NCBI GenBank assembly: GCA_001782235.1
Contig: MFOC01000003.1
Span: 1-45,850 of the forward strand
Length of the DNA stretch: 45,850 bases
Direction of reading: 5' to 3'
DNA from: Candidatus Levybacteria bacterium RIFCSPHIGHO2_02_FULL_40_18
GTDB lineage: Bacteria > Patescibacteriota > Microgenomatia > Levybacterales > GWA1-39-11
Both the position numbers and the translations under genes were made by a program. The notes beneath the pieces were generated by a model that was given only the letters and a program-made list of their open reading frames with translations, searched no databases and had not been told where the DNA came from. This document shows, one piece after another, positions 1 to 34,412 of the stretch (position 1 is the stretch's first letter; every line of letters starts with the position of its first letter).

Positions 1-2641
1 CGCCTGATAGAGAAAGTGTTGTGATGCCTGAAAGAGCGCCTGCGGTTGAGACATCAAATGCTGTAGAATCAAGTGAGAAACTGTCTCCATTATCACCTAG
101 GTCTATCTGTCCATTGGCATCAAGAGCGCCATTGGCTGTCAAAGTTCCTGAAACAGTAAGGGAGCTTGAAGCTGTTGTTGCATCGGAAAGTGTAATTGAG
201 GAAGAACCCGAATCTATGACTATGTTTCCTGTGTCTGAGGTACCAAGAGTTAGGGTCTGCATTGCAGTTGTAGATAATGTTCCTGTTGCATTAAGATATG
301 ATCCTCCTGCCGCTCCTGCAGATAGTGTTGCCGTGGGGGTACCCGAGTTTACATTTAGAATTGCAAATTTGGCAGAAGATGAGGCTTGTCCTCCTATTGC
401 AAAGTCCACAGTCGAATTATTCGCAAATAATACGCCTGAGCCTTGATTCCAGAAGGCATCGATACTTCCGCTATCACAGGAGCCCCATGAGGGCGCAGAT
501 GCTCCTGAAACAAGACATAAGTTCTGGGTGTCAGTTGATGCTCCTGCAAGCTGTCCTGTTGATACAGTTGCATATATAACGTTATTGTTTGCATTAAATG
601 TTGAGAAGGTAATAATACCATCTGCTGTAATATTTCCTAATCCTGTTGCATTTCCTGTAGTTCCTATATCCCAGTCTGAGGAATCAATTGCAACAGTGTC
701 CCCATTGTCCCCCAGCGTTACTACTCCATTGGCGTCAAGGATTTCGTTTGCGGTAAATGTACCTGCTACTGTTAGAGTTGATGAGGCGGTTGTTGCATCG
801 GATAGAGTAATCGAAGAACTTCCCGAGTCTATCACTATATTTCCCGTAGCTGAGCCTCCCAGAGTTAAGGTTTGCTGGGCAGTTGTTGAGAGAGTACCTG
901 TTGCCGAAAGGTAAGCCCCTCCTGCCGCTCCTGCAGATAGCGTTGCTGTTGGAGTACCGGAATTTACATTAAGAACGGCAAACTTGGCTGAGGTTGTGGC
1001 TGTTCCGCCTATTCCAAAATCAACTGTTAGGTTGTTTGGAAATAGTAAGCCTGCAGAGCTTTGCTGCCAGAATGCGTCTGTTCCCGTTCCTTCACAAGAA
1101 CCAAAGAAAGGTATTGCACCTCCCAATAAACATTGCGTGGAGCTTCCGGCAGTGACTTGTTGAAGCACTCCTGAGCCATTTGTATATAGAACGCCACCGT
1201 TTGATGTAAAAGTGGACATGACTATAGATGTTGCACCAAGAGTGATTTGATCTGAGGCAAAGGCAAGTGTTGGATCGGTTGCGCCTGCATTAAATGTCCA
1301 AGTGAAGCCCGAGCCTGATCCAAAAGTCGCGTCCGAGATTTCCGTTGTGTCAAGGTTGACAGTAACTGTGTCTGTTGAGCCTGCAACCGTATCTATACCG
1401 TTTGTTCCGCCAGCTATGGTAATAGTGTCTGAATCGGTTATTGTTTGAGTGGTACCTGAGTCTCCGGCAAGCGAAAAGGTCGTGATTCCTCCGCTCCCCC
1501 CACTGTCAAGCTGCTCCCAAGTGTTGGCGCTCGTACAAGCTTTGACCGTATTGTCAGTGTCATTGAAGTAGATGTCGCCTGCTGTACAGGTCGAAGGATC
1601 TCCTGTTGACCCTTTGTCTGATAATCTAACAGTCCCATAGGATCCCGAATCAACAATCGTAAATAGCGTATTTGTTCCGTCTTTAAAGGCCAAAGTTCCG
1701 CCGCCTGCAAGATTAAGCACGCCTGACGTATCTGAAAGCGTTAAGTTCCCTCCAACGGTTAGTCCGCCGGAAAATGTGGTGGCTGTTGAAGTGGTTGCTC
1801 CCCGGCCGGTAACTGTTGCCAAAGTGTCTGCTTCTGAAGTCAAAGCACTTGATGAGATTGTAACTGTTTTGTCGGATTCGGATGTTGAAACGGATACGCT
1901 ACCGTTTCCCTTCAAACTTATGTCTCCGATTGTATTATTTAGAGTTAGTACGCCGTTGTTTGATATAGTTGGCGTCTGTCCAGTACTAATCAGGACGCCA
2001 CTACCAGAAGCCACTCCATAAAGCAAATTTGATGCAAAAACCGAACCATCTCCTGCATCTATATCGGCTCCACCCGTAACTATTCCCCCAACAGCCTGAA
2101 TTTGTCCTAAAAATGCGGCATCTTCCTCAAACTCGCTTGGTATATTGACCAAAAATGTAGGATTGAGTCCCTCTGTTGCGGCCGCTAAAATCTCTCTCCC
2201 CTGCGATAAAGTTTCTTCTTGACCCTTGGGGGCAAGATTTTTAATGCCTCCAAAATAATCTCCCGCACGGCCTAAAACCAGAAGGCCTCCGAGAGAGCTC
2301 AGGGTAACAAATGAAGCGATAGTGAGAACTAACCCTGCTTTGCGGGCCAAATTCTTAGCGTCTTTTGATCTTTTCTCCCAGTCAATTATTGATGGACTTG
2401 ATTGTTGCGCTGGGGACTCGGGGAAGATAAGTTCTTGAGAGGACCTTGGGTTAAACTCAACTTCTACTCCAAGTTCCCGGTTCGTTTTAAAATTTTCAAT
2501 TTGGGATTTAAGATAGCGCCTTTGGTTTCCAGCGGTTCTTTGGGGAACAAAAATCCCTCGAGCCTCCCAACGTCTCAAAGTTTTGGGCGAGACTCCTAAA
2601 AGTTTTCCTGCCTCCTGAATTGACAGGAGTTTATCTTGCAT
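1..2641 (-). CDS. Giant surface repeat protein (C-terminus beyond the window edge): N-terminal MerR/excisionase-type HTH, one TM helix, then Gly/Ser/Thr-rich extracellular repeats
   Basis: My translation of the minus strand from the ATG (complement of 2639-2641) stays open to base 1. It is missing from the ORF track only because no stop lies in the window. The N-terminus MQDKLLSIQEAGKLLGVSPKTLRRWEARGIFVPQRTAGNQRRY is HTH_17/MerR-like. AGLVLTIASFVTLSSLGGLLVL is a TM helix. There are two ~207-aa tandem units (FWQQSSAGLLFPNN...NSGTPTATLSAGAAGG and FWNQGSGVLFANN...NSGTPTATLSAGAAGG). Plus-strand ORFs 21-446, 528-914 and 1776-2021 are its antisense shadows. Confidence 0.85.
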   Translation of the reverse strand, partial: MQDKLLSIQEAGKLLGVSPKTLRRWEARGIFVPQRTAGNQRRYLKSQIENFKTNRELGVEVEFNPRSSQELIFPESPAQQSSPSIIDWEKRSKDAKNLARKAGLVLTIASFVTLSSLGGLLVLGRAGDYFGGIKNLAPKGQEETLSQGREILAAATEGLNPTFLVNIPSEFEEDAAFLGQIQAVGGIVTGGADIDAGDGSVFASNLLYGVASGSGVLISTGQTPTISNNGVLTLNNTIGDISLKGNGSVSVSTSESDKTVTISSSALTSEADTLATVTGRGATTSTATTFSGGLTVGGNLTLSDTSGVLNLAGGGTLAFKDGTNTLFTIVDSGSYGTVRLSDKGSTGDPSTCTAGDIYFNDTDNTVKACTSANTWEQLDSGGSGGITTFSLAGDSGTTQTITDSDTITIAGGTNGIDTVAGSTDTVTVNLDTTEISDATFGSGSGFTWTFNAGATDPTLAFASDQITLGATSIVMSTFTSNGGVLYTNGSGVLQQVTAGSSTQCLLGGAIPFFGSCEGTGTDAFWQQSSAGLLFPNNLTVDFGIGGTATTSAKFAVLNVNSGTPTATLSAGAAGGAYLSATGTLSTTAQQTLTLGGSATGNIVIDSGSSSITLSDATTASSTLTVAGTFTANEILDANGVVTLGDNGDTVAIDSSDWDIGTTGNATGLGNITADGIITFSTFNANNNVIYATVSTGQLAGASTDTQNLCLVSGASAPSWGSCDSGSIDAFWNQGSGVLFANNSTVDFAIGGQASSSAKFAILNVNSGTPTATLSAGAAGGSYLNATGTLSTTAMQTLTLGTSDTGNIVIDSGSSSITLSDATTASSSLTVSGTLTANGALDANGQIDLGDNGDSFSLDSTAFDVSTAGALSGITTLSLSG

Positions 2642-2716
2642 CGGGCAGTTTTTGTACTCGGTCTATATATAGTAATACACGTTCCGTGAAAAATGTCAAG
2701 ACCCAAATGTCCAATA

Positions 2717-2756
2717 TTGGGTAAGTTTATCCATCATTTTGGGTAAGTTTGTCCAT
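2717..2756. promoter_or_regulatory. Two 18-bp direct repeats TTGGGTAAGTTT(A/G)TCCAT with 22-bp phasing (operator-like) in a divergent promoter region
   Basis: Copies at 2717-2734 and 2739-2756 differ at one base. A related copy, TGGTAAGTTTGGACAT, lies at 2824-2839. Confidence 0.4.
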
Positions 2757-2767
2757 ATTTTGGCCTC

Positions 2768-2797
2768 TTGACATGTCCAAGCCTGCCCAAGTATGAT
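2768..2797 (+). promoter_or_regulatory. Sigma70-like promoter for the atp operon
   Basis: TTGACA at 2768-2773, an 18-bp spacer, then TATGAT at 2792-2797. Confidence 0.4.
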
Positions 2798-2822
2798 TTT
2801 ATGTAGGCAGGAAAAATCGCCT

Positions 2823-3626
2823 ATGGTAAGTTTGGACATGAGATTTTTTTCTGCGATTTCTTTCGCCCTAATACTTCTTTTGGCTTTTTACAGCCCGGCT
2901 CTGGCTCAAGAAACAGAAGTCTTGACTGGTACGGGTGTTGCAATTTCGCTTCCGATTGTTGATGAGAATATAAAAGATGGAAGTATAATTGCCTCAACTG
3001 ACTCAGGCTATAAAAAATCATCTTACGCTTATCAACCTTCGCTTTATGGAGTAATGACAAACACTCCCGCGCTGTTTCTTGAGAATGGAGATCCTCCCCC
3101 CAAAGACACATATCATCCGGTTATAACAACAGGCAAGGCGTACGTTTTAGTCTCGACAATAAATGGGTCGATTAAAAAAAATGATTTCATAACCTCATCG
3201 GAAACTCCGGGAGTCGGCCAAAAATCAAGCGCAAGCGGTTATGTTTTGGGGACTGCTCTTGAAGACTACACATCCTCCGATACTCGATCTGAGGGAAGGA
3301 TCTTGGCTTACATAAATCCCCATTTCAACGCTACGTTTATTGCCACGAGAGCCAATCTTCTTGAAAGCTTAAGAAATATTGCGGCCTCCCCCACCCTTGC
3401 GCCACTGACTACCTTTCGCTATATCATTGCGGCACTCATTGCGACAGCCTCATTCATACTTGGTTTTATACATTTTGGAAGAATAATAAGAACAGGCATT
3501 GAAGCATTGGGAAGAAACCCCCTTGCCTCGGTCTTTATTCAGGCCAGCATGCTTTTAAATGTTGCTTTAACTATTGGGGTAGTACTTGGAGGTATTGCCA
3601 TATCGTACTTGGTACTAGTCCTATGA
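2823..3626 (+). CDS. Secreted-domain protein with a C-terminal ATP synthase c-subunit-like TM hairpin that lacks the conserved carboxylate
   Basis: ORF track gives 2793-3626, but the 2793 ATG sits in the predicted -10 box, so ATG 2823 (or 2838) is preferred. Signal/TM segment FFSAISFALILLLAFYSPALA-QE is followed by a ~170-aa soluble domain. Then RTGIEALGRNPLASVFIQASMLLNVALTIGVVLGGIAISYLVL aligns by eye with F-type c subunits (Bacillus PS3 [36 protein letters not shown]). The R-N/Q-P loop, Q, M and VAL are all in register, but Thr-Ile replaces Val-Glu. Confidence 0.75.
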   Translation: MVSLDMRFFSAISFALILLLAFYSPALAQETEVLTGTGVAISLPIVDENIKDGSIIASTDSGYKKSSYAYQPSLYGVMTNTPALFLENGDPPPKDTYHPVITTGKAYVLVSTINGSIKKNDFITSSETPGVGQKSSASGYVLGTALEDYTSSDTRSEGRILAYINPHFNATFIATRANLLESLRNIAASPTLAPLTTFRYIIAALIATASFILGFIHFGRIIRTGIEALGRNPLASVFIQASMLLNVALTIGVVLGGIAISYLVLVL

Positions 3627-4060
3627 GAACTCAAAGCTCAAATCGCAAAACTCAAAATGAATCAAGAAGCATGAATCAAGAAGCAAGGAAAATAAGAAAT
3701 TTTACAGATTTGAACGCATGGAAAGAGGCTCATAGGCTGGTTTTATTTATCTATCGAATAACAAAGGACTTCCCTCGTGAAGAACTATTCGGACTAGTAA
3801 ATCAATTAAGACGTGCGGTTATTTCGATAACATCTAATATCGCTGAAGGATTTAGTAGGAGTTCTTATAAGGAGAAGTCTCAATTTTATTCGATGGCATT
3901 AGGCTCGCTAACTGAAGTTCAGAATCAGCTTATTGTATCAAGAGACTTAGGATACATAACAAAAAAGGATTTTGAAGAATTGGAAGATATAACTATTACA
4001 GTAAGCAAATTGCTTAATGGTCTTATTAAAAAATCTAAAACCATGATTCATAATTCATGA
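3623..4060 (+). CDS. Four-helix-bundle protein (23S rRNA intervening-sequence protein family)
   Basis: NFTDLNAWKEAHRLVL...ITSNIAEGFSRSSYKEKSQFYSMALGSLTEVQNQL is the family signature (PF05635/TIGR02436 type). In-frame ATG 3671 is an equally plausible start. Start and stop both lie inside the flanking inverted-repeat arms. Confidence 0.85.
   Translation: MRTQSSNRKTQNESRSMNQEARKIRNFTDLNAWKEAHRLVLFIYRITKDFPREELFGLVNQLRRAVISITSNIAEGFSRSSYKEKSQFYSMALGSLTEVQNQLIVSRDLGYITKKDFEELEDITITVSKLLNGLIKKSKTMIHNS
3637..3688. repeat. Left composite arm of the inverted repeat enclosing the four-helix-bundle gene
   Basis: CTCAAATCGCAAAACTC (3637-3653) is the reverse complement of 4075-4091 with 1 mismatch in 17. 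GAATCAAGAAGCATGAATCAAGAAGCAAGG (3659-3688) pairs with 4041-4070 at 24 of 30 positions (hand alignment). Confidence 0.7.
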
Positions 4061-4091: not shown

Positions 4092-4131
4092 ATGTAGATT
4101 TGACATTTGATTTTTGACATTTGAGATAAAT

Positions 4132-4797
4132 ATGTCCGAAATATTTTTATATTATGCTCTTCTAACATCTGTTTTCCTCCTGTCAGGAGTTTTAATAGTT
4201 GTGATTCAATATCTTTTTAATGTTTTAAAAAAGAATAAGCTGTATCAAAAAGATGCGGTTCGTCACAGTCAAGAAATCATTTCACACGCAAATGAAAAAG
4301 CTAAACAGATAATATCTGAGGCGCAAGTTTTTTCAGACGAGGTCCGGCAAGGGAGTGATAAACTCATAGCAAGCCTTAAAGAATCTCAAAGAGAGGAACT
4401 TAAGAAGGCCGCAGACAGGCTTTTTGAAGAATATAAAGCTGCGCTGGAAGAAGTTTATAAAGAGAATATCAATATATTTAGAAATATATCAAAAGATATC
4501 GAAGAAAAGGCAGGTTTTGAAATTCGTGACTTTAAAGAGATTTTGGAAAAAGAAACAATCGAGTCCCAAAAGATTGTTGGTGAAAAAATAGAAACTGAAT
4601 ATCATGATGTACAAAAGGAGATTCAGGAGTACAAAAACCGCGAGCTTTTGAAGGTTCAGGAAAGCATTTATGGGATTGTACATAATGCCATTGAACTTGC
4701 AATCGGTAAATCGCTGGATCGACAAACCCAGGAGGAACTGGTAATGGAAGCTTTGAAAGAAGCCATCGAAAAACAAGAAACGTCAGAATCTAAATGA
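4132..4797 (+). CDS. atpF: F0F1 ATP synthase subunit b
   Basis: One N-terminal TM helix (IFLYYALLTSVFLLSGVLIVVI) followed by a long charged coiled coil. It sits immediately upstream of atpH-atpA. The ORF-track start at 4114 is a TTG inside the repeat arm, so ATG 4132 is preferred. Confidence 0.75.
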   Translation: MSEIFLYYALLTSVFLLSGVLIVVIQYLFNVLKKNKLYQKDAVRHSQEIISHANEKAKQIISEAQVFSDEVRQGSDKLIASLKESQREELKKAADRLFEEYKAALEEVYKENINIFRNISKDIEEKAGFEIRDFKEILEKETIESQKIVGEKIETEYHDVQKEIQEYKNRELLKVQESIYGIVHNAIELAIGKSLDRQTQEELVMEALKEAIEKQETSESK

Positions 4798-4926: not shown

Positions 4927-5382
4927 ATGGACATTCCTAAATTTTTATCAAAAGTGTATACAACTGAAGACAGAGTTAGATTATATTCTGAAATCGAGTT
5001 GGTTTCGGAGGCCATATATAAAGAGGGTGAGCTTAACAAGGTACTTGCATCCCGCGTTTCTAAGGCACTAGTGGAATATATTGGCAGCGAGAGTTCTTAC
5101 GAAATACTTTCAGAAAAACTTTCGGAGCTTAAGAAGGCTCTAGACCAATTAGTAATTATGAAGCTGACGCTTGCTTTTGAGCCTTCGGAACAAACAATTA
5201 AGAAAATAGTGACTTTCATTCGTGAAAACTTGGATGAAAAGACGATATTTGAGATTTGCCAACAACCAAATATCCTAGGTGGCGCAATCCTTGAGTTCAA
5301 AGGATTGTACAGAGATTACAGTCTCAAAACCAGGCTCGAAGAGATTTTTAAGAGTAAGCGAGATGAGCTATATAAAATATGA
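4927..5382 (+). CDS. atpH: F0F1 ATP synthase subunit delta (OSCP)
   Basis: C-terminal ...QQPNILGGAILEFKGLYRDYSLKTRLEEI resembles the delta/OSCP signature. Operon position fits, and the stop overlaps the atpA start (ATGA). Confidence 0.75.
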   Translation: MDIPKFLSKVYTTEDRVRLYSEIELVSEAIYKEGELNKVLASRVSKALVEYIGSESSYEILSEKLSELKKALDQLVIMKLTLAFEPSEQTIKKIVTFIRENLDEKTIFEICQQPNILGGAILEFKGLYRDYSLKTRLEEIFKSKRDELYKI

Positions 5383-6863
5383 ATAATTTTGAAGACTATT
5401 TAAAAGAAATAGGAGAAATAGGATATGTTGAAGAGGTGGTTGGACCGATTGCTCAAGTGAGCGGTTTGCCGGGCGCAAAATGTGAAGAACTCGTGATGTT
5501 TGAAAGCGGGGAAATAGGTCAGGTCCTTTCTTTGTCCGAAGACTTTGTCGAAGTTCTAATATTTTCAAGAAACCCTATAAAGGTAGGCGTTAGGGCCGTC
5601 CGACTCAACAAGCCTTTTGAGATGCCGGTAGGACATGAATTGCTTGGGCAGATTATAGATCCTTTTGCACGGCCCTTTGACGAGACAAGGCCGGTAAAAA
5701 CCCCAAAAGACAGAAGAAATATTCTCGTTAAGGCCGCAGGAATCGACAAGCGAAGAACAATTAAAAGGCATTTAGTGACAGGTGTGACACTCGTTGACTT
5801 ATTAATACCAATCGGCTTTGGACAAAGAGAGCTTTTGATTGGAGACAGAAAAACCGGTAAGACAAATTTCCTCTTGGCCACAATTTTATCGCAGGCAAAA
5901 AGAGGAACTATCTGTATTTATGCTGTTATTGGCAAAAGAAAGATTGATATTAAAAAAATTGAAGACCTTTTTGTAAAGAATAAGGTCATGGATAACATTA
6001 TTATGATTGCAACAACATCTTTTGATCCGCAAGGATTAATCTATTTAACACCCTACTCCGCTATAACAATTGCGGAATATTTTCGAGACGCGGGAATAGA
6101 TACAATTTTAGTCATTGATGATCTATCAAATCATGCGAGGTTTTACAGAGAAATTTCACTTCTCGGCCGCCGTTTTCCGGGAAGAAATTCTTACCCTGCA
6201 GATATCTTTCACACACACGCACGGTTTATGGAAAGAGCCGGAAATTTTATAGTCGGCGACAAGGAGGTATCAATTACTGTGCTCCCGATAGTTGAAACAA
6301 ACCAGGGAGATCTCTCAGGCTACATTCAAACCAATCTCATGTCAATGACCGACGGCCACCTTTATTTTGATCAAGGCCTCTTTTCCCAAGGGATTCGCCC
6401 CGCGATTAATCCCTTCATATCGGTGACTCGTGTTGGTCAGCAAACCCAATCGTCTCTCCAGCGAAGCATTGCACGAGAGCTAAGATCTTTCCTTGTCTTG
6501 TATCAAAAAACAAAGCGATTTGTCCACTTTGGTGAAGAGATTAGCCAATCAATAAAGACAATTCTCGCAACGGGGGATAATCTTACCCGCTTCTTTCACC
6601 AACCTCCTTCAAGCATTACCTCAGAAAACATACAGATTTTTCTCTTTGCTTTGCTTTGGTCAAATTTCTTTGGAGATGAACCGTTTGAAAAAATAAAGCA
6701 GGATATGGATAAATGGAGAGTAATGTATGAGGAAAATAAAGCTTTTCACGATAACATAGATAATATGATTGCAACATCATCCCATTTAAATGAGCTGCTC
6801 TTGAAAATCAAGGGAATCCAAACCAAAAACAATCCAGACCAGAAGATCGTCTTAACAAGCTGA
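5379..6863 (+). CDS. atpA: F0F1 ATP synthase subunit alpha
   Basis: Walker A GDRKTGKT, then ICIYAVIGKR, LPIVETNQGDLSGYIQTNLMSMTDGHLYF and RPAINPFISVTRVG. Confidence 0.95.
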   Translation: MNNFEDYLKEIGEIGYVEEVVGPIAQVSGLPGAKCEELVMFESGEIGQVLSLSEDFVEVLIFSRNPIKVGVRAVRLNKPFEMPVGHELLGQIIDPFARPFDETRPVKTPKDRRNILVKAAGIDKRRTIKRHLVTGVTLVDLLIPIGFGQRELLIGDRKTGKTNFLLATILSQAKRGTICIYAVIGKRKIDIKKIEDLFVKNKVMDNIIMIATTSFDPQGLIYLTPYSAITIAEYFRDAGIDTILVIDDLSNHARFYREISLLGRRFPGRNSYPADIFHTHARFMERAGNFIVGDKEVSITVLPIVETNQGDLSGYIQTNLMSMTDGHLYFDQGLFSQGIRPAINPFISVTRVGQQTQSSLQRSIARELRSFLVLYQKTKRFVHFGEEISQSIKTILATGDNLTRFFHQPPSSITSENIQIFLFALLWSNFFGDEPFEKIKQDMDKWRVMYEENKAFHDNIDNMIATSSHLNELLLKIKGIQTKNNPDQKIVLTS

Positions 6864-6933: not shown

Positions 6934-7788
6934 ATGGTTACTAAAAAATCTATAGAATCCGAGATCGAATCATTGACTAACATGAAGGGCATTGCCGAAT
7001 CTTTTGAGGAGATTGCCGCACTACGAATCAGAAGAAACCGGGACCAAGTTTTAAAAAACAGGCAGTTTACGACAGAAGTAAATGAAATCTTTCAACAGGT
7101 AAAAATTGCATCCGTCAATATAATTGATCCAAAACAGAAATCTTTTCTCAAAAAAAACGGGAGAACTCTATTTGTATATCTTTCGGCCAACACAGGACTC
7201 TATGGAGATATTGTCAGGAGAACTTTTAATCTATTCGCAAAATATGTAGGACAATGGGCGGATAATGTTCTCATAATCGGAAAGGTTGGGCTTAAACTTG
7301 CCTCTGAACGCAAAATAATAAAGCCAGTTGCTTATTTTGATCTTCCGGACGATACAATTGATACACAAAGTATAAAAAAGATATCTTCTTATCTATTAGA
7401 CTTTGAGAGGGTTATTGTATTTTATGCCAAATTTGAGGGAATTTTACATCAAGAAGAAACAATGATTGATTTATCAGGCAATCCTTCCCTCCCTTCCTTT
7501 ACTCCGCCTCAAGCACCTCAATTTAAAATTAAATACTTTTTTGAACCGGAGGTAACTAAGATTTTGGCATTCTTTGAAACAGAGATTTTCGAAAGCTTAC
7601 TTGAACAGACAGTCAGGGAATTTCAACTTGCCAAGCTTTCATCACGAGTAGTTGGATTAAATAGTGCTATTGATCATATAGAAAATGAGCTTAAAAAAAC
7701 CACCAGTAAAAGGAATGAGTTCTTACATCAAGAATCAAACAGAAAGCAGTTACAAACCTTTTCATCAATGTCCCTATGGGACATATGA
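6934..7788 (+). CDS. atpG: F0F1 ATP synthase subunit gamma
   Basis: Size, operon position between alpha and beta, and N- and C-terminal helical segments (IAALRIRRNRDQV..., ...EFQLAKLSSRVVGLNSAIDHIENEL). The sequence is divergent. Confidence 0.8.
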   Translation: MVTKKSIESEIESLTNMKGIAESFEEIAALRIRRNRDQVLKNRQFTTEVNEIFQQVKIASVNIIDPKQKSFLKKNGRTLFVYLSANTGLYGDIVRRTFNLFAKYVGQWADNVLIIGKVGLKLASERKIIKPVAYFDLPDDTIDTQSIKKISSYLLDFERVIVFYAKFEGILHQEETMIDLSGNPSLPSFTPPQAPQFKIKYFFEPEVTKILAFFETEIFESLLEQTVREFQLAKLSSRVVGLNSAIDHIENELKKTTSKRNEFLHQESNRKQLQTFSSMSLWDI

Positions 7789-7800
7789 TTTACGCAGATT

Positions 7801-9764
<1,964 letters not shown>

Positions 9765-9774
9765 AAGATGAGGT

Positions 9775-10044
9775 ATGAAACCTAAATTAAATAGCCGAAC
9801 AATATCGGTCGTTATAAAAAATAAGGACGGGGTAGTTTTTGAAGGAGACGCAAAAGCGCTTACCTCTATCAATGAAAAGGGGATTTTTGACGTTCTACCG
9901 CTCCATGAGAATTTTGTTTCTGTGGTCCGCGATTTTATAAGAATACATAAAGCAAATGGTACAAGCCAAGACATTAAAATAGGTGAAGGGGTCATTAAGG
10001 TTATCCAAAACAAAGTCAACGTCTACGTAGGTTTTCGAGCATAG
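9775..10044 (+). CDS. atpC: F0F1 ATP synthase subunit epsilon, beta-sandwich domain only
   Basis: VVIKNKDGVVFEGDAKALTSINEKGIFDVLPLHENFVSVV matches the epsilon N-terminal domain. At 89 aa it lacks the C-terminal helical hairpin. Confidence 0.8.
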   Translation: MKPKLNSRTISVVIKNKDGVVFEGDAKALTSINEKGIFDVLPLHENFVSVVRDFIRIHKANGTSQDIKIGEGVIKVIQNKVNVYVGFRA

Positions 10045-32569: not shown

Positions 32570-32697
32570 GAAAATAGTTGTAGGAAATTGGACAATGGTT
32601 ATAGAAATAGGATATTGAAAATAAGTATTTAAAAGCTATTTTCTATTTTCAATTTTCCATTACTAATTTCTATTTTCTAATAACCAATTTCTTGTTT
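32570..32697. repeat. Hairpin element (GGAAATTGG word family) separating the two comEC ORFs
   Basis: Left arm GGAAATTGGACAATGGTTATAGAAATAGGATATTGAAAATAAG. Right arm CTATTTTCTATTTTCAATTTTCCATTACTAATTTCTATTTTCTAATAACCAATTTC. The upstream ORF's last codons and stop (..KKLVIRK*) lie inside the right arm. Confidence 0.65.
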
Positions 32698-33656
32698 AAC
32701 CATAATATTCCTGCTAACAGTATCAAATAATATCCTGCGATAATGGCCCAAGGGACATTGTTTACCTCGATCGATGTAACTTTCGAAGCAAAAAAATCAA
32801 CCACTACCTGAAAATACGAAAGAAGTGGAAAAGAAAGATAAATAAAGGGAGACGCCAAAGATTTTGAGATAAAACTTGCAGCTGCGCTTATTCCTCCTAG
32901 AACCATTAAGGGCGGGACTGTCCAAAGAACCAAAAAATTGACAATTATCGAAATTGGAGAATAAGTTCCAAAAAAGAATAACAGAATTGGAGTTGTTGCG
33001 ATTTGGGCCGAGATTGTTGTTCGAAAATCCTCGAAAAAATAATGCTTGAACAATCCTCTTTTTAAAATGGGGTCCAATAAAATAATCCCAAGAGTTGCCG
33101 AAAAGGATAAAATAAAGCTGATTGAGCTTAAAACCCGAGGTTCCCAGAAAATCATGGCAAAAGCGGCGAAAGAAAGAGCAAGAAGCGATGTATTTTGACG
33201 GCCTATCAACCCTGCACTAAGTGCAAATAATGCCATAATCGCGGCTCGAATAATTGAGGGCTGGAAATCTGCCAAGGCGACATAGAATAGAACTATAACT
33301 GAAGTTACAATGAGCGCGTACTGGCGTCTTAAGAAGACTACCAAAGTTCCTAGCAGAAAAGAAGTCAGCATGCTAACGTTCATGCCAGACGCCGCCACGA
33401 CATGAAGGACTCCGGTCTGAATGAACTTCTCTTTTGAGGTCTTCGTGAGATTCTCACCAAAAACTACCCCTATTAATAAATCTGCATCTTTCGGGTTCAA
33501 TACTGAGCGATAAATTTCTTTAATATGACTTTTTATATCTTGAACAACAGCTATGTTAGTTGTATTGGTCGTTTTTATCGTTTTATTCTCGAATGAATAG
33601 AAAAGCACTACGCGGACAAGAAAAACGAGTGAAAGAATGATGATAAACCTAAGCAT
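32670..33656 (-). CDS. comEC: ComEC/Rec2 membrane channel (Competence domain) portion
   Basis: LIGVVFGENLTKTSKEKFIQTGVLHVVAASGMNVSMLTSFLL plus many TM helices. Confidence 0.85.
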   Translation of the reverse strand: MLRFIIILSLVFLVRVVLFYSFENKTIKTTNTTNIAVVQDIKSHIKEIYRSVLNPKDADLLIGVVFGENLTKTSKEKFIQTGVLHVVAASGMNVSMLTSFLLGTLVVFLRRQYALIVTSVIVLFYVALADFQPSIIRAAIMALFALSAGLIGRQNTSLLALSFAAFAMIFWEPRVLSSISFILSFSATLGIILLDPILKRGLFKHYFFEDFRTTISAQIATTPILLFFFGTYSPISIIVNFLVLWTVPPLMVLGGISAAASFISKSLASPFIYLSFPLLSYFQVVVDFFASKVTSIEVNNVPWAIIAGYYLILLAGILWLNKKLVIRK

Positions 33657-33800
33657 GGGAAATTGGTTGTTAGAAATTAGAAAATGGTTATAGAAATTAG
33701 ATACTAGAAATTGGGGTTATTTATTATTATTTAACTATTTTCTATTTTCCACACTCCATTACTAATTTCCATTTTCAAATAACTATTTTCAAATACTCTA
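33657..33800. repeat. Hairpin element (GGAAATTGG word family) between comEA and comEC
   Basis: Left arm GGAAATTGGTTGTTAGAAATTAGAAAATGGTTATAGAAATTAGATACTAGAAATTGG. Right arm CTATTTTCTATTTTCCACACTCCATTACTAATTTCCATTTTCAAATAACTATTTTC. Confidence 0.65.
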
Positions 33801-33803
33801 TCA

Positions 33804-34412
33804 TCATAGACTAATTAGGTCTCGAATCTTCTCATATGTTGCTTTTCCGACTATTTTTCTTTCTAATAACTCTTCTACCGAACCATATGGTCGATTGTCT
33901 ATAATTTTCCCTGCTGTCACAGGCCCAATCCCCGGCAACTCTTCAAGTTCAGATGTCGAAGCCGAATTTACCGAAATCAAACCCGTGATACTTGCTTGCC
34001 CTGAGCTTGTCGAACGGGTGGTACCCGTCACAATCTCCCCTTCTGCTGGAACATATATTTTTTGTCCGTCAACAATTTTGGCTGCAAGATTAATGGCTTT
34101 TCTATTTGCATCCGAAGTTAACCCACCGGCCGCAATTAGAGCATCCTGCACACGCGCATCTTGAGAAAGTTCATAAACGCCCGGTTTTATTACTTCTCCT
34201 TCAACGTCAACCTTAATTTTTGAAACCGACGAACCCTCAACGGCTTGTCCATCTTCAAATTTAATCGAAGCCTGCTGCTGCCCCGTCATCTGTATCAAAC
34301 CACTACTTAATAATATCAACCCTACTACAAACAGCCCCACAATAAGAAAATTTTGTTTTGCAAACAGCAAGGCCTTATCATGAAATGATTTTTCGGAAGT
34401 GTCCACTGACAA
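33804..34412 (-). CDS. comEA: Competence protein ComEA (TM, SLBB, helix-hairpin-helix)
   Basis: VDVEGEVIKPGVYELSQDARVQDALIAAGG is SLBB-like. ELEELPGIGPVTAGKIIDNRPYGSVEEL is the HhH motif. Confidence 0.9.
   Translation of the reverse strand: MSVDTSEKSFHDKALLFAKQNFLIVGLFVVGLILLSSGLIQMTGQQQASIKFEDGQAVEGSSVSKIKVDVEGEVIKPGVYELSQDARVQDALIAAGGLTSDANRKAINLAAKIVDGQKIYVPAEGEIVTGTTRSTSSGQASITGLISVNSASTSELEELPGIGPVTAGKIIDNRPYGSVEELLERKIVGKATYEKIRDLISL

What the first reader, a model, noticed from the sequence alone, without database searches (positions are those of the whole stretch)
2823..3626. c-subunit-like hairpin without the ion-binding carboxylate, fused to a secreted domain, in place of atpB/atpE
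The operon here runs c-like gene, atpF, atpH, atpA, atpG, atpD, atpC. There is no a subunit and no canonical c subunit upstream; the upstream neighbour is a divergent surface-protein gene. The last ~70 residues of this protein align with F-type c subunits: RTGIEALGRNP matches [10 protein letters not shown], and Q, M and VAL are in register. Two features are missing. Helix 1 lacks the GxGxGxG packing motif. The helix-2 Glu/Asp position, 18 residues after the loop Pro, is Ile (VALTI versus VALVE). A ~170-aa exported domain precedes the hairpin. Either proton/sodium translocation by this ATPase is non-canonical, or this is a c-derived stator, anchor or regulatory protein.
Basis: partly seen in the sequence, partly recalled or inferred. 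Interest (0 to 1): 0.65.

Follow-up and report, generated by a model that had tools for sequence, protein, structure and literature searches.

The report
Proton-blind c-subunit fused to surface domain
In a large group of ultra-small bacteria (Microgenomates and WWE3), the "ATP synthase" operon has no a subunit, and its c subunit has lost the ion-carrying acidic residue and gained an exported phage-like domain, so the enzyme probably cannot use or make an ion gradient in the textbook way.

Summary
Window 2823-3626 (+) encodes a 267-aa protein with a signal peptide, an exported ~140-aa beta domain and a C-terminal two-helix hairpin.

- **Hairpin identity:** it is a remote but real homologue of F-type subunit c (PDB profile search, Pfam scan of relatives, hhalign 95%, Foldseek rmsd 1.1-1.9 Å).
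- **Missing carboxylate:** the Glu/Asp position is Ile here. It is never acidic in 151 representatives, and no acidic residue occurs anywhere in either membrane helix.
- **Conserved loop:** the cytoplasmic GRNP loop is invariant.
- **Operon:** the gene heads a conserved c'-b-delta-alpha-gamma-beta-epsilon operon in 86 loci from Microgenomates and WWE3. No a-subunit gene lies within 10 kb. F1 catalytic motifs and the b/delta stalk are retained.
- **Exported domain:** it resembles phage cement proteins and the phi29 pre-neck-appendage chaperone domain.

Best reading: an ATP-hydrolysing F-type motor sits on an ion-uncoupled c-derived base that displays a surface domain. This resembles Mycoplasma F1-like X0 ATPases in design. 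The mechanism is inferred, not shown.

Absence of canonical atpB/atpE from the whole genomes could not be tested here. Kantor et al. 2013 briefly noted an odd "putative c subunit" in WWE3/OP11 operons. I rate this a new variant of a known kind.

The parts
2768..2797 (+). sigma-70-like promoter of the operon (TTGACA-18-TATGAT, 11/12)
   Evidence: It overlaps the upstream ATG at 2793, which favours ATG 2823 as the start.
2823..3626 (+). c-derived subunit gene (c'), 267 aa: signal peptide, exported beta domain, linker, c-like hairpin
2823..2906 (+). signal peptide (residues 1-28, ...SPALA|QE). Long variants in other genomes have a true TM helix here, preceded by a cytoplasmic HTH_17 domain.
   Evidence: sequence; AF2 helix 7-26; long variants
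2907..3332 (+). exported beta-rich domain (residues ~29-170), fold of phage cement/decoration proteins and the phi29 pre-neck-appendage chaperone (Peptidase_G2/IMC-like)
   Evidence: Foldseek PDB E 3.5e-5 to 1e-3; BFVD E 5e-12 to 1e-9, rmsd 2.2-3.9 Å; weak PF23982 in 22/120 members; paralogous domain overlaps Peptidase_G2 hits in large surface proteins
3333..3401 (+). conserved linker (NPHFNASF...) with a short helix; low model confidence
3402..3515 (+). hairpin helix 1 (residues 194-231; membrane part ~R199-G219). No GxGxGxG motif. Invariant R199, G214, F215, F218, G219; Y200 nearly invariant.
3510..3521 (+). invariant cytoplasmic loop G-R-N-P (residues 230-233), equivalent to the R-Q/N-P loop of subunit c that contacts gamma/epsilon
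   Evidence: 151/151 for R, N and P; aligned to ARQP/GRNP of PDB c subunits
3519..3623 (+). hairpin helix 2 (residues 233-267)
3573..3575 (+). Ile251 codon, the position of the ion-binding Glu/Asp of subunit c (Pro+18)
   Evidence: aligned to Glu. The column is L44 I43 V27 F17 A9 T4 S2 in 151 representatives, never D/E. It lies on the variable helix face.
3558..3560 (+). Asn246 codon (Pro+13), the only conserved polar residue deep in helix 2 (N128/H17/S6), on the conserved packing face
4114..4797 (+). subunit b (227 aa, elongated; one N-terminal TM helix without a conserved charged residue)
   Evidence: family profile hits PDB subunit b at E 2e-8; TM conservation
4927..5382 (+). subunit delta (OSCP)
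   Evidence: PF00213 E 1.6e-8
5379..6863 (+). subunit alpha (Walker A GDRKTGKT, Arg finger SVTRVG)
6934..7788 (+). subunit gamma
   Evidence: PF00231 E 5e-22
8247..9764 (+). subunit beta ([17 protein letters not shown]); passes the atpD equivalog cut-off
9775..10044 (+). subunit epsilon, beta-sandwich only (89 aa, no C-terminal inhibitory helices)
   Evidence: PF02823; family median ~93 aa

Best explanation
The gene encodes a diverged subunit c of an F-type ATPase, here called c'. It keeps the two-helix membrane hairpin and an invariant cytoplasmic GRNP loop. It has lost the membrane carboxylate that carries H+/Na+. It has gained an N-terminal exported domain with the fold of phage cement proteins and tailspike-chaperone domains.

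c' is the first gene of a c'-b-delta-alpha-gamma-beta-epsilon operon that lacks subunit a. This arrangement is conserved across Microgenomates and WWE3.

Most likely mechanism:
1. c' oligomerises in the membrane.
2. The gamma/epsilon stalk of a catalytically competent F1 docks on the GRNP loops.
3. The b2-delta stalk holds alpha3beta3.
4. ATP hydrolysis applies torque to the c' oligomer. No ions cross, because there is neither a carboxylate nor an a subunit.
5. The energy is passed mechanically to the exported domains at the cell surface.

This is the same design logic as the Mycoplasma F1-like X0 ATPases.

Shown computationally: the domain architecture, c homology, loss of the carboxylate, operon conservation, intact F1 motifs, and retained b and delta.

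Inferred: oligomerisation, docking of gamma/epsilon, hydrolysis-only operation, and mechanical output.
For: Homology to subunit c:
- PDB profile search: 8/9 hits are c subunits, best E 0.0068, over the full hairpin.
- 26/71 hairpins hit PF00137, best E 3.6e-5.
- hhalign probability 95.2%, E 2.6e-8.
- Foldseek matches to c subunits: TM 0.8-0.9, rmsd 1.1-1.9 Å.

Loss of ion coupling:
- The Glu column is never acidic, and there are zero D/E from Pro-35 to Pro-11 and from Pro+10 to Pro+34 in 151 representatives.
- The Glu-equivalent column is variable and lies 121 degrees off the conserved face.
- The b TM helix has no conserved Arg.
- No a-subunit motif occurs in 1.2 Mb around 86 loci. No conserved polytopic protein lies upstream.

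Part of the machine:
- c'-b-d-A-g-B-e synteny appears in 54 complete loci and in truncated form in the rest. It also holds for the long variants.
- The GRNP loop is 151/151 conserved.

Active motor with stator:
- Beta Walker A in 66/69, GxGERxRE present, alpha Arg finger in 74/77 (70 SVTRVG, 4 SVSRVG).
- Subunit b confirmed at E 2e-8 and delta by PF00213.
- Epsilon lacks the inhibitory C-terminal domain.

Exported domain.

Precedent: Mycoplasma Type 2/3 F1-like X0 ATPases contain a protein with a signal peptide, a large exported part and two C-terminal TM helices, and they power extracellular functions (PMC3369863, PMC12994834).

Literature: Kantor 2013 found no recognisable a, b or c in the ATPase operon of a complete WWE3 genome.
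Against: - No experiment, oligomer model or co-fold was possible, so the ring and the gamma/epsilon contact are assumed.
- Whole genomes could not be scanned, so a canonical atpB/atpE pair elsewhere is not excluded.
- Long variants carry an extra TM helix and 150-300 cytoplasmic residues with an HTH_17 domain per protomer. That would crowd a freely rotating ring.
- The phage-type domain is typically a trimerisation module. The oligomer may therefore not be a classical 8-15-mer ring.
- A conserved Asn/His/Ser at Pro+13 and Thr at Pro+17 leave some room for an unusual ion site.
- No RNA or protein expression data were found.
- No extracellular partner or task is identified.
Confidence: 0.55

Rival explanations
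1. Canonical atpB and atpE are encoded elsewhere in these genomes. c' would then be an accessory or minor ring member, comparable to the carboxylate-poor c1 of Acetobacterium woodii, or an assembly or regulatory factor of an otherwise normal ion-coupled F1Fo.
For: Only the window and +/-10 kb of 86 loci were inspected, about 2% of each genome. Split atp operons exist in other bacteria (general knowledge). Reviews state that nearly all Patescibacteria have an F-type ATP synthase.
Against: c' occupies exactly the atpE slot in front of atpF in every locus. No second c-like ORF occurs in any locus. Kantor 2013 reported no recognisable a/b/c for a complete WWE3 genome. The c' hairpin is more conserved than most of the operon, with an invariant loop, as expected for the main gamma/epsilon partner.
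Confidence: 0.12
2. The c' oligomer still translocates ions through a non-canonical site. Candidate residues are Asn/His/Ser at Pro+13, Thr at Pro+17 and Gln/Glu at Pro+7. The stator partner would be unrecognised or encoded elsewhere.
For: These polar positions are conserved: N128/H17/S6, T116, Q87/E27 of 151. Neutral Na+ sites exist in some transporters (general knowledge). The b/delta stalk and all F1 parts are retained.
Against: No natural c-ring is known to work without a carboxylate (general knowledge). The Asn and Thr lie on the conserved helix-packing face, not on the outward face. The Na+ signature positions are not polar: Pro-15 is an invariant Phe, Pro+19 is mostly Gly/Val/Ala and Pro+23 is variable. 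No a-like protein or conserved Arg-bearing TM helix lies in the operon.
Confidence: 0.12
3. c' is a static membrane anchor. The complex does not rotate against the membrane. F1 is simply tethered under a surface-exposed oligomer, and ATP hydrolysis drives conformational signalling or has some other cytoplasmic role.
For: Long variants add a TM helix and a bulky cytoplasmic HTH region per protomer, which fits poorly with free rotation. The exported domain resembles trimerising phage modules that could fix the oligomer to the envelope.
Against: A peripheral stalk (b, delta) is needed only to resist torque, and it is conserved. Gamma, epsilon and the loop they would bind are conserved too.
Confidence: 0.15
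4. The similarity to subunit c is a chance resemblance of hydrophobic hairpins, or the operon is a decaying relic.
For: The single sequence gives no Pfam hit, and NCBIfam gives only E 0.8. Hydrophobic hairpins give spurious matches.
Against: The hits are specific: 26/71 to PF00137 against at most 3 for any other family, and 8/9 PDB hits are c subunits. The register is the same in three methods. The gene sits in the atpE position. There are 611 clusters at 50% identity with a strongly conserved hairpin and intact F1 motifs, and 301 species genomes carry it. That is purifying selection, not decay.
Confidence: 0.03

Closest known systems
F-type ATP synthase subunit c (AtpE, PF00137)
   Same: Two-helix hairpin with both termini outside. 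Cytoplasmic R-N-P loop preceded by a conserved Glu at Pro-6. Conserved Gly in helix 2 (Pro+24). Gene directly upstream of atpF. Structural match with rmsd 1.1-1.9 Å.
   Different: No Glu/Asp at Pro+18 or anywhere else in the membrane helices. No GxGxGxG in helix 1. About 190 extra N-terminal residues (signal peptide, exported domain, linker). No partner subunit a nearby. Falls below the Pfam/NCBIfam thresholds as a single sequence.
Mycoplasma F1-like X0 ATPases, Type 2 (gliding motor) and Type 3 (MIB-MIP); 'Protein 5' (MSC_0620 / MMCAP2_0577 / MMOB1650)
   Same: F1-type alpha/beta/gamma/epsilon coupled to a membrane part that is not a proton turbine. One membrane subunit has a signal peptide, a large exported region and two C-terminal TM helices joined by a short loop. 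The function is ATP hydrolysis that powers something outside the cell (PMC3369863, PMC12994834).
   Different: The Mycoplasma clusters lack b and delta and contain a 12-TM protein and a small cytoplasmic protein. Here b and delta are kept and no 12-TM protein is present. Alpha and beta score far below the MSC_0618/0619 and MMOB1660/1670 cut-offs, and beta still passes the genuine atpD model. Homology of the two hairpins was not tested.
Carboxylate-less hairpins inside duplicated proteolipids (V-type c/K subunits, Acetobacterium woodii c1)
   Same: Natural c-type hairpins that have lost the ion-binding carboxylate yet still sit in a rotor ring (general knowledge; A. woodii ring 4bem is among the hits).
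   Different: Those rings always keep carboxylates on other hairpins and work with an a subunit. Here every copy lacks it and no a subunit is seen.
Phage cement/decoration proteins and the phi29 gp12 pre-neck-appendage intramolecular chaperone (PF23982, PF22758, PF11962 Peptidase_G2)
   Same: Fold of the exported domain. PDB matches: 8hdt_G, 8pkh, 6qyy, 3suc, 7kmx, 5wk1. BFVD 'preneck appendage protein barrel' at E ~1e-10. Weak Pfam hits. A paralogous domain in large surface proteins overlaps Peptidase_G2 hits.
   Different: Here the domain is anchored to the cell membrane by a c-type hairpin and is encoded in an ATPase operon, not in a virion protein. It falls below the Pfam thresholds. Autoproteolysis and trimerisation are untested.
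'Putative c subunit' of WWE3/OP11 ATPase operons noted by Kantor et al. 2013 (mBio, PMC3812714)
   Same: Probably the same gene family: a transmembrane protein shared by the ATPase operons of WWE3 and OP11 genomes, without significant homology to known subunits.
   Different: That paper gave one sentence. It did not show c homology, the missing carboxylate, the exported phage-like domain, the absence of subunit a as a clade-wide trait, or the long HTH variants.

Membership tests
F/V-type ATPase subunit c (PF00137) | Two-TM helical hairpin with a polar cytoplasmic loop R-(Q/N)-P | tested here: met
   AF2 helices 194-231 and 233-266, pLDDT >90. GRNP invariant in 151 representatives. Foldseek TM 0.8-0.9 to c subunits.
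F/V-type ATPase subunit c (PF00137) | Sequence match to the family model above its curated threshold | tested here: not met
   The window protein has no PF00137 hit at E<=1. NCBIfam PRK06876 gives 9.6 bits against a cut-off of 71. Remote homology is nevertheless supported at family level.
F/V-type ATPase subunit c (PF00137) | Membrane-embedded ion-binding Glu/Asp in helix 2 (Pro+18), or relocated to helix 1 | tested here: not met
   Ile251 here. 0/151 acidic at that column and 0 acidic anywhere in either TM core.
F/V-type ATPase subunit c (PF00137) | Gly-rich packing motif (GxGxGxG) in helix 1 | tested here: not met
   Helix 1 is LRYxLAAxIAxxSFxLGFxYFGR. Only two conserved Gly residues.
F/V-type ATPase subunit c (PF00137) | Encoded in an atp operon next to atpF | tested here: met
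   Window and 86 loci.
F/V-type ATPase subunit c (PF00137) | Works with a subunit a (conserved Arg, RLxGN motif) | tested here: inconclusive
   None in the window and none within +/-10 kb of 86 loci. Whole genomes could not be scanned. Kantor 2013 found none recognisable in a complete WWE3 genome.
F/V-type ATPase subunit c (PF00137) | Forms a homo-oligomeric ring bound to gamma/epsilon | not testable with these tools
   No multimer prediction was available. The feature is only inferred from the invariant loop and a conserved helix face.
Na+-binding c subunit (Ilyobacter type) | Gln at Pro-15, Glu at Pro+18, Ser/Thr at Pro+19, Tyr at Pro+23 (positions recalled from the I. tartaricus sequence, not verified with a tool) | tested here: not met
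   Pro-15 is Phe in 148/151, Pro+18 is hydrophobic, Pro+19 is mostly G/V/A, Pro+23 is variable.
Mycoplasma F1-like X0 ATPase (Type 2/3) | [quoted passage not shown] | tested here: not met
   256.9 against 520; 380.9 against 570; 337.1 against 600; 335.8 against 850 bits. Beta passes the genuine atpD model (479.4 against 462.85).
Mycoplasma F1-like X0 ATPase (Type 2/3) | No b/delta peripheral stalk; a 12-TM protein in the cluster | tested here: not met
   b and delta are present. No conserved polytopic protein lies nearby.
Mycoplasma F1-like X0 ATPase (Type 2/3) | Membrane subunit with a signal peptide, a large exported region and two C-terminal TM helices ('Protein 5') | tested here: met
   The architecture of c' matches, compared with the descriptions in PMC3369863 and PMC12994834. 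Sequence homology between the two was not tested.
N-ATPase (alternate F1Fo) | atpDCQRBEFAG gene order and matches to the alt_F1F0 models | tested here: not met
   The order here is c'-b-d-A-g-B-e. The alt_F1F0 alpha, beta and epsilon scores are far below their cut-offs.
Phage cement/decoration and Peptidase_G2 (IMC) domains | Fold similarity of the exported domain | tested here: met
   PDB E down to 3.5e-5. BFVD E down to 5e-12, rmsd 2.2-3.9 Å over ~140 columns.
Phage cement/decoration and Peptidase_G2 (IMC) domains | Sequence match above the Pfam threshold; autoproteolytic residues | tested here: not met
   PF23982 gives 18.5 bits against a cut-off of 27. 22/120 members give weak hits. No PHROG hit. 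Catalytic residues were not examined.

The most novel reading that the evidence does not exclude
Microgenomates and WWE3 bacteria have turned their F-type ATP synthase into an ATP-driven transmembrane mechanical device. F1 turns, or torques, a c-derived oligomer that no longer carries ions. Instead it carries tailspike-chaperone-like domains on the cell surface, and these do extracellular work such as attachment, surface remodelling or interaction with a host cell. After the two Mycoplasma F1-like X0 types, this would be a further independent re-purposing of a rotary ATPase. It would be the first in which the c-ring itself is the output shaft. It would also mean that these organisms have no ion-coupled ATP synthase at all.
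Probability: 0.3. Interest if true: 0.85.

Novelty: new variant of a known kind. Interest (0 to 1): 0.7.

Why it matters
Reviews and metabolic reconstructions count 'F-type ATP synthase present' for almost all Patescibacteria. They then debate whether the enzyme makes ATP from a scavenged proton gradient or pumps protons in reverse.

For at least 301 species genomes and 611 protein clusters of Microgenomates and WWE3, the membrane sector lacks both elements that every known rotary ATPase needs to move ions: the c carboxylate and subunit a. If no canonical pair exists elsewhere, neither proposal can hold for this clade, and its energy budget must be rethought.

For the rotary-ATPase field this is a natural, strongly conserved experiment. 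It combines a complete F1, a central stalk and a peripheral stalk with a c-type base that is blind to ions and carries an extracellular domain. It offers a tractable system for asking what a rotary motor does when it is uncoupled from ions. It also gives a possible evolutionary bridge to the Mycoplasma F1-like X0 machines, whose membrane subunit has the same signal-peptide, exported-domain, two-helix layout.

Tried and rejected
- **Single-sequence Pfam/NCBIfam on the window protein.** No usable c-subunit hit. Family-level scans were needed.
- **Hairpin profile against 1.84 billion representatives.** It returned only this family in the top 150. No bridge to canonical c subunits was visible.
- **Search for subunit a.** An RLxGN-type motif scan and TM counts over the window and 86 loci found nothing. 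The few upstream polytopic ORFs have no Pfam identity and are not conserved. The 76-aa ORF upstream of the long variant in L087 is not c-like.
- **Subunit b as a substitute stator.** Its TM helix has no conserved Arg or polar residue.
- **Whole-genome check for atpB/atpE.** Not possible. I judged the remaining protein searches untargetable, because only the best 120 hits are shown, and did not run them.
- **Expression.** 20 DNA metagenome runs (groundwater and soil) hold the operon, 12 of them at 90% or more of the sampled words, but no RNA run could be listed.
- **PHROGs on the exported domain.** No hit.
- **Literature.** Searches for Microgenomates or CPR with c subunit, atpB/atpE or F1-like ATPase gave nothing specific. 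Only Kantor 2013 mentions the odd subunit, and its supplements are not held.
- **The 11-nt inverted repeat at 2603-2613 / 2805-2815.** Rejected as meaningful, because one arm is coding sequence of the upstream HTH gene.
- **Apparent duplicate c' genes in a few loci.** These are a frameshift-split ORF (L040) or hits of the exported domain alone in large surface proteins.
Full report
**What is at the coordinates.**
The ORF list shows 2793..3626 (+), 277 aa. The database gene call P0001 (267 aa, 100% identical) starts at ATG 2823. An 11/12 sigma-70-like promoter (TTGACA at 2768, TATGAT ending at 2797) overlaps the upstream ATG.

The operon continues as follows:
- a 23S-rRNA-IVS four-helix-bundle protein gene, 3623-4060, whose ATG overlaps the c' stop codon (ATGA);
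- b, 4114-4797;
- delta, 4927-5382;
- alpha, 5379-6863;
- gamma, 6934-7788;
- a GxxExxY/PDDEXK_3 gene, 7801-8241;
- beta, 8247-9764;
- epsilon, 9775-10044.

Pfam did not recognise b. A profile of 18 orthologues hits solved subunit b chains at E 2e-8, covering both the membrane end and the delta-binding end.

Upstream and divergent lies a gene (2..2662, minus strand) for a MerR/HTH_17 + TM + repeat surface protein. The 45.8-kb window holds no a-like or second c-like ORF. Its polytopic proteins are BacA, ComEC, VanZ and unassigned ones without the a-subunit motif.

**The protein.**
The AF2 model has mean pLDDT 87.2. It shows:
- an N-terminal hydrophobic helix (7-26) ending in SPALA|QE, a typical signal-peptidase site (read from the sequence);
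- a beta-rich domain (39-168);
- a poorly defined but sequence-conserved linker;
- two long helices (194-231 and 233-266) joined at G230-R231-N232-P233.

With an exported N-domain, the hairpin has both ends outside and the loop in the cytoplasm. That is the topology of subunit c.

**Is the hairpin a subunit c?**
As a single sequence it is not recognisable. There is no PF00137 hit, and NCBIfam subunit C gives only E 0.8. At family level the answer is yes:
- A 23-sequence hairpin profile searched against all PDB chains returns nine hits at E<=10. Eight are F-type c subunits, best E 0.0068, aligned over the full hairpin.
- Of 71 diverse hairpins scanned one by one against Pfam, 26 hit PF00137 (best E 3.6e-5). 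No other family is hit by more than 3.
- hhalign against four solved c subunits gives 95.2% probability, E 2.6e-8.
- Foldseek places the hairpin on c subunits of Chloroflexus, chloroplast, Bacillus PS3, B. pseudofirmus, yeast, bovine and mycobacteria. TM scores are 0.8-0.9 and rmsd 1.1-1.9 Å.
- One JGI record already calls a homologue a c subunit.

All alignments use the same register. GRNP aligns to ARQP/GRNP, and the c-subunit Glu aligns to Ile251 (codon 3573-3575).

**What has been lost.**
I examined 151 representatives of clusters at 50% identity.
- The Glu column is L44, I43, V27, F17, A9, T4, S2.
- No Asp or Glu occurs anywhere from Pro-35 to Pro-11 or from Pro+10 to Pro+34. The carboxylate has therefore not moved to another position or to helix 1.
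- Helix 2 has one conserved face: I239, N246, T250, I253, G257, A261, I264 (P0001 numbering). The Glu-equivalent column lies 121 degrees away on the variable hydrophobic face, as expected for a lipid-exposed position.
- The conserved Asn (N128/H17/S6) and Thr sit on the packing face. A structural role is more likely for them than an ion site.
- Helix 1 has no GxGxGxG motif.
- The Na+-site positions, recalled from the Ilyobacter tartaricus sequence, are not polar.

**What has been kept.**
- The loop R-N-P is invariant (151/151), and its surroundings (G-V/I-E-A-L/I-G-RNP-L-A) are nearly so. In F1Fo this loop is the docking site for gamma and epsilon (established knowledge).
- Across the related loci, beta keeps GGAGVGKT (66/69) and GxGERxRE. 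Alpha keeps GDRKTGKT and the Arg finger, 74/77 (70 SVTRVG, 4 SVSRVG).
- Beta even passes the atpD equivalog cut-off.
- Epsilon is only the beta-sandwich (~90 aa). It lacks the C-terminal helices that inhibit hydrolysis in many bacteria.
- b and delta, whose only known job is to resist torque, are conserved.

**Distribution and context.**
- The full protein has 820 homologues at E<=1e-3 in the 90%-clustered database.
- The hairpin profile finds 611 clusters at 50% identity, and the hairpin is always C-terminal.
- A scan of GTDB species genomes finds 301 genomes. The record titles name Levy-, Ames-, Shapiro-, Gottesman-, Woese- and Roizmanbacteria and WWE3. These belong to the Microgenomates group.
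- In 86 loci (1.2 Mb) the order c'-b-delta-alpha-gamma-beta-epsilon is complete in 54. In the rest it is truncated by contig ends or blurred by divergence.
- None of the loci has an a-subunit motif or a second c-like ORF. No polytopic protein is conserved upstream.
- The b membrane helix has no conserved Arg.

**A second architecture.**
A class of 390-590-aa proteins replaces the signal peptide with one or two cytoplasmic HTH_17 domains, a long linker and a true TM helix. The same exported domain and hairpin follow. This long form also heads a b-delta-alpha-gamma operon.

**The exported domain.**
- Foldseek against the PDB gives phage capsid cement and decoration proteins (Pam3, Borrelia BB1, phi29 gp8.5 base, XM1, TW1, SHP) and pre-mature phi29 gp12.
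- Against predicted viral structures the matches are much stronger: E 5e-12 to 1e-9, rmsd 2.2-3.9 Å over ~140 columns. They include 'preneck appendage protein barrel' and tail proteins.
- Sequence signals are weak but agree. PF23982 is hit in 22/120 members and Phage_cement in one.
- The same domain occurs inside 1340-1415-aa surface proteins of two related genomes, where it overlaps Peptidase_G2 (IMC) hits.
- In phages these modules oligomerise, mostly as trimers (general knowledge). Whether that holds here is unknown.

**Mechanism.**
Shown: a complete, selectively maintained F1 with central and peripheral stalk genes, plus a c-derived membrane subunit that cannot bind ions in the known way, and no subunit a in the operon.

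Inferred: c' oligomerises, gamma/epsilon dock on the invariant loops, and ATP hydrolysis torques the c' oligomer against b2-delta. Because nothing couples this to ions, the output is mechanical and reaches the exported domains.

The closest working analogy is the Mycoplasma F1-like X0 ATPases. They power gliding or the MIB-MIP antibody-cleavage system. Their 'Protein 5' has the same layout of signal peptide, exported region and two C-terminal TM helices (PMC3369863, PMC12994834). This system is not a member of that family:
- b and delta are present;
- there is no 12-TM protein;
- the alpha and beta scores fall far below those models' cut-offs.

Points against free rotation are the bulky cytoplasmic N-terminal regions of the long variants and the possibility of a trimer rather than a ring.

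**Rivals.**
- A canonical atpB/atpE pair elsewhere, with c' as an accessory. This is not excluded, because whole genomes could not be scanned.
- A non-canonical ion site.
- A static anchor.
- Chance resemblance or decay. The specificity of the hits and the strong conservation argue against this.

**Prior knowledge.**
Kantor et al. 2013 wrote that the a, b and c subunits of the ATPase operon in a complete WWE3 genome lack significant homology. They added that its 'putative c subunit' resembles a transmembrane protein in OP11/WWE3 operons, and they left function open. Later reviews simply state that nearly all Patescibacteria have an F-type ATP synthase.

I found no description of the c homology, the missing carboxylate, the phage-like exported domain, the clade-wide lack of subunit a or the HTH variants. 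I therefore rate it a new variant of a known kind. Interest is 0.7.

Noticed in passing
window 3623-4060 (+); L003-L005 ~5194-5556: A 23S-rRNA-intervening-sequence / four-helix-bundle protein gene (PF05635, TIGR02436) sits inside the atp operon. In the window it lies between c' and b, with its ATG overlapping the c' stop (ATGA). In Levybacteria loci the same kind of gene lies between b and delta. In L001 it is absent. It behaves like a small mobile insert.
   Followed up: partly
window 7801-8241 (+): A GxxExxY / PD-(D/E)XK_3 protein gene (TIGR04256, PF13366) is inserted between atpG and atpD. This is a second small non-ATPase gene inside the operon.
   Followed up: no
window 2720-2734, 2742-2756, 2825-2839 (+); inverted partner 2772-2787: Three copies of a 15-nt motif, GGTAAGTTT(A/G)(T/G)(C/A)CAT. 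Two are in tandem (22-nt spacing) just upstream of the -35 box and one overlaps the c' start codon. An inverted copy overlaps the -35 hexamer and the start of the spacer. Five matches occur in the window against 1.4 expected. This is a candidate operator for the operon or for the divergent gene.
   Followed up: partly
window 2-2662 (-): The divergent neighbour has a cytoplasmic MerR/HTH_17 domain, a TM helix and a long Thr/Gly/Ser-rich repeat region that runs off the window. The long variants of c' (P0187, P0198, P0228) show the same 'HTH + TM + exported domain' layout. This suggests a recurrent CPR design of unknown meaning.
   Followed up: partly
L064 10340-14359 (-), L054 16475-20719 (-): Surface proteins of 1340-1415 aa lie convergent to the atp operon. 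They have N-terminal Phage_int_SAM domains and an internal Peptidase_G2/IMC-like region homologous to the exported domain of c' (E 3e-10 and 9e-8).
   Followed up: partly
window 9775-10044 (+) and 4114-4797 (+): Epsilon is reduced to its beta-sandwich (89 aa; family median about 93). Subunit b is about 60 residues longer than usual (227-240 aa), with the extra length in the middle of the stalk.
   Followed up: partly
L006, L007, L009, L012 and many others: Many MAG records that carry this Microgenomates-type operon are titled 'uncultured Gammaproteobacteria bacterium'. A few are titled Saccharimonadales, Parcubacteria or Alphaproteobacteria. These are almost certainly placeholder or wrong labels.
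   Followed up: no
L040 3043-3817 (+): In this genome the c' gene is split into two ORFs (104 and 176 aa). This is either a frameshift or an assembly error. It is the only interrupted copy seen among 86 loci.
   Followed up: no
window 32670-34412 (-): ComEC-like (PF03772) and ComEA-like (SLBB + HhH) competence genes lie next to each other, as is usual for DNA-scavenging CPR bacteria.
   Followed up: no
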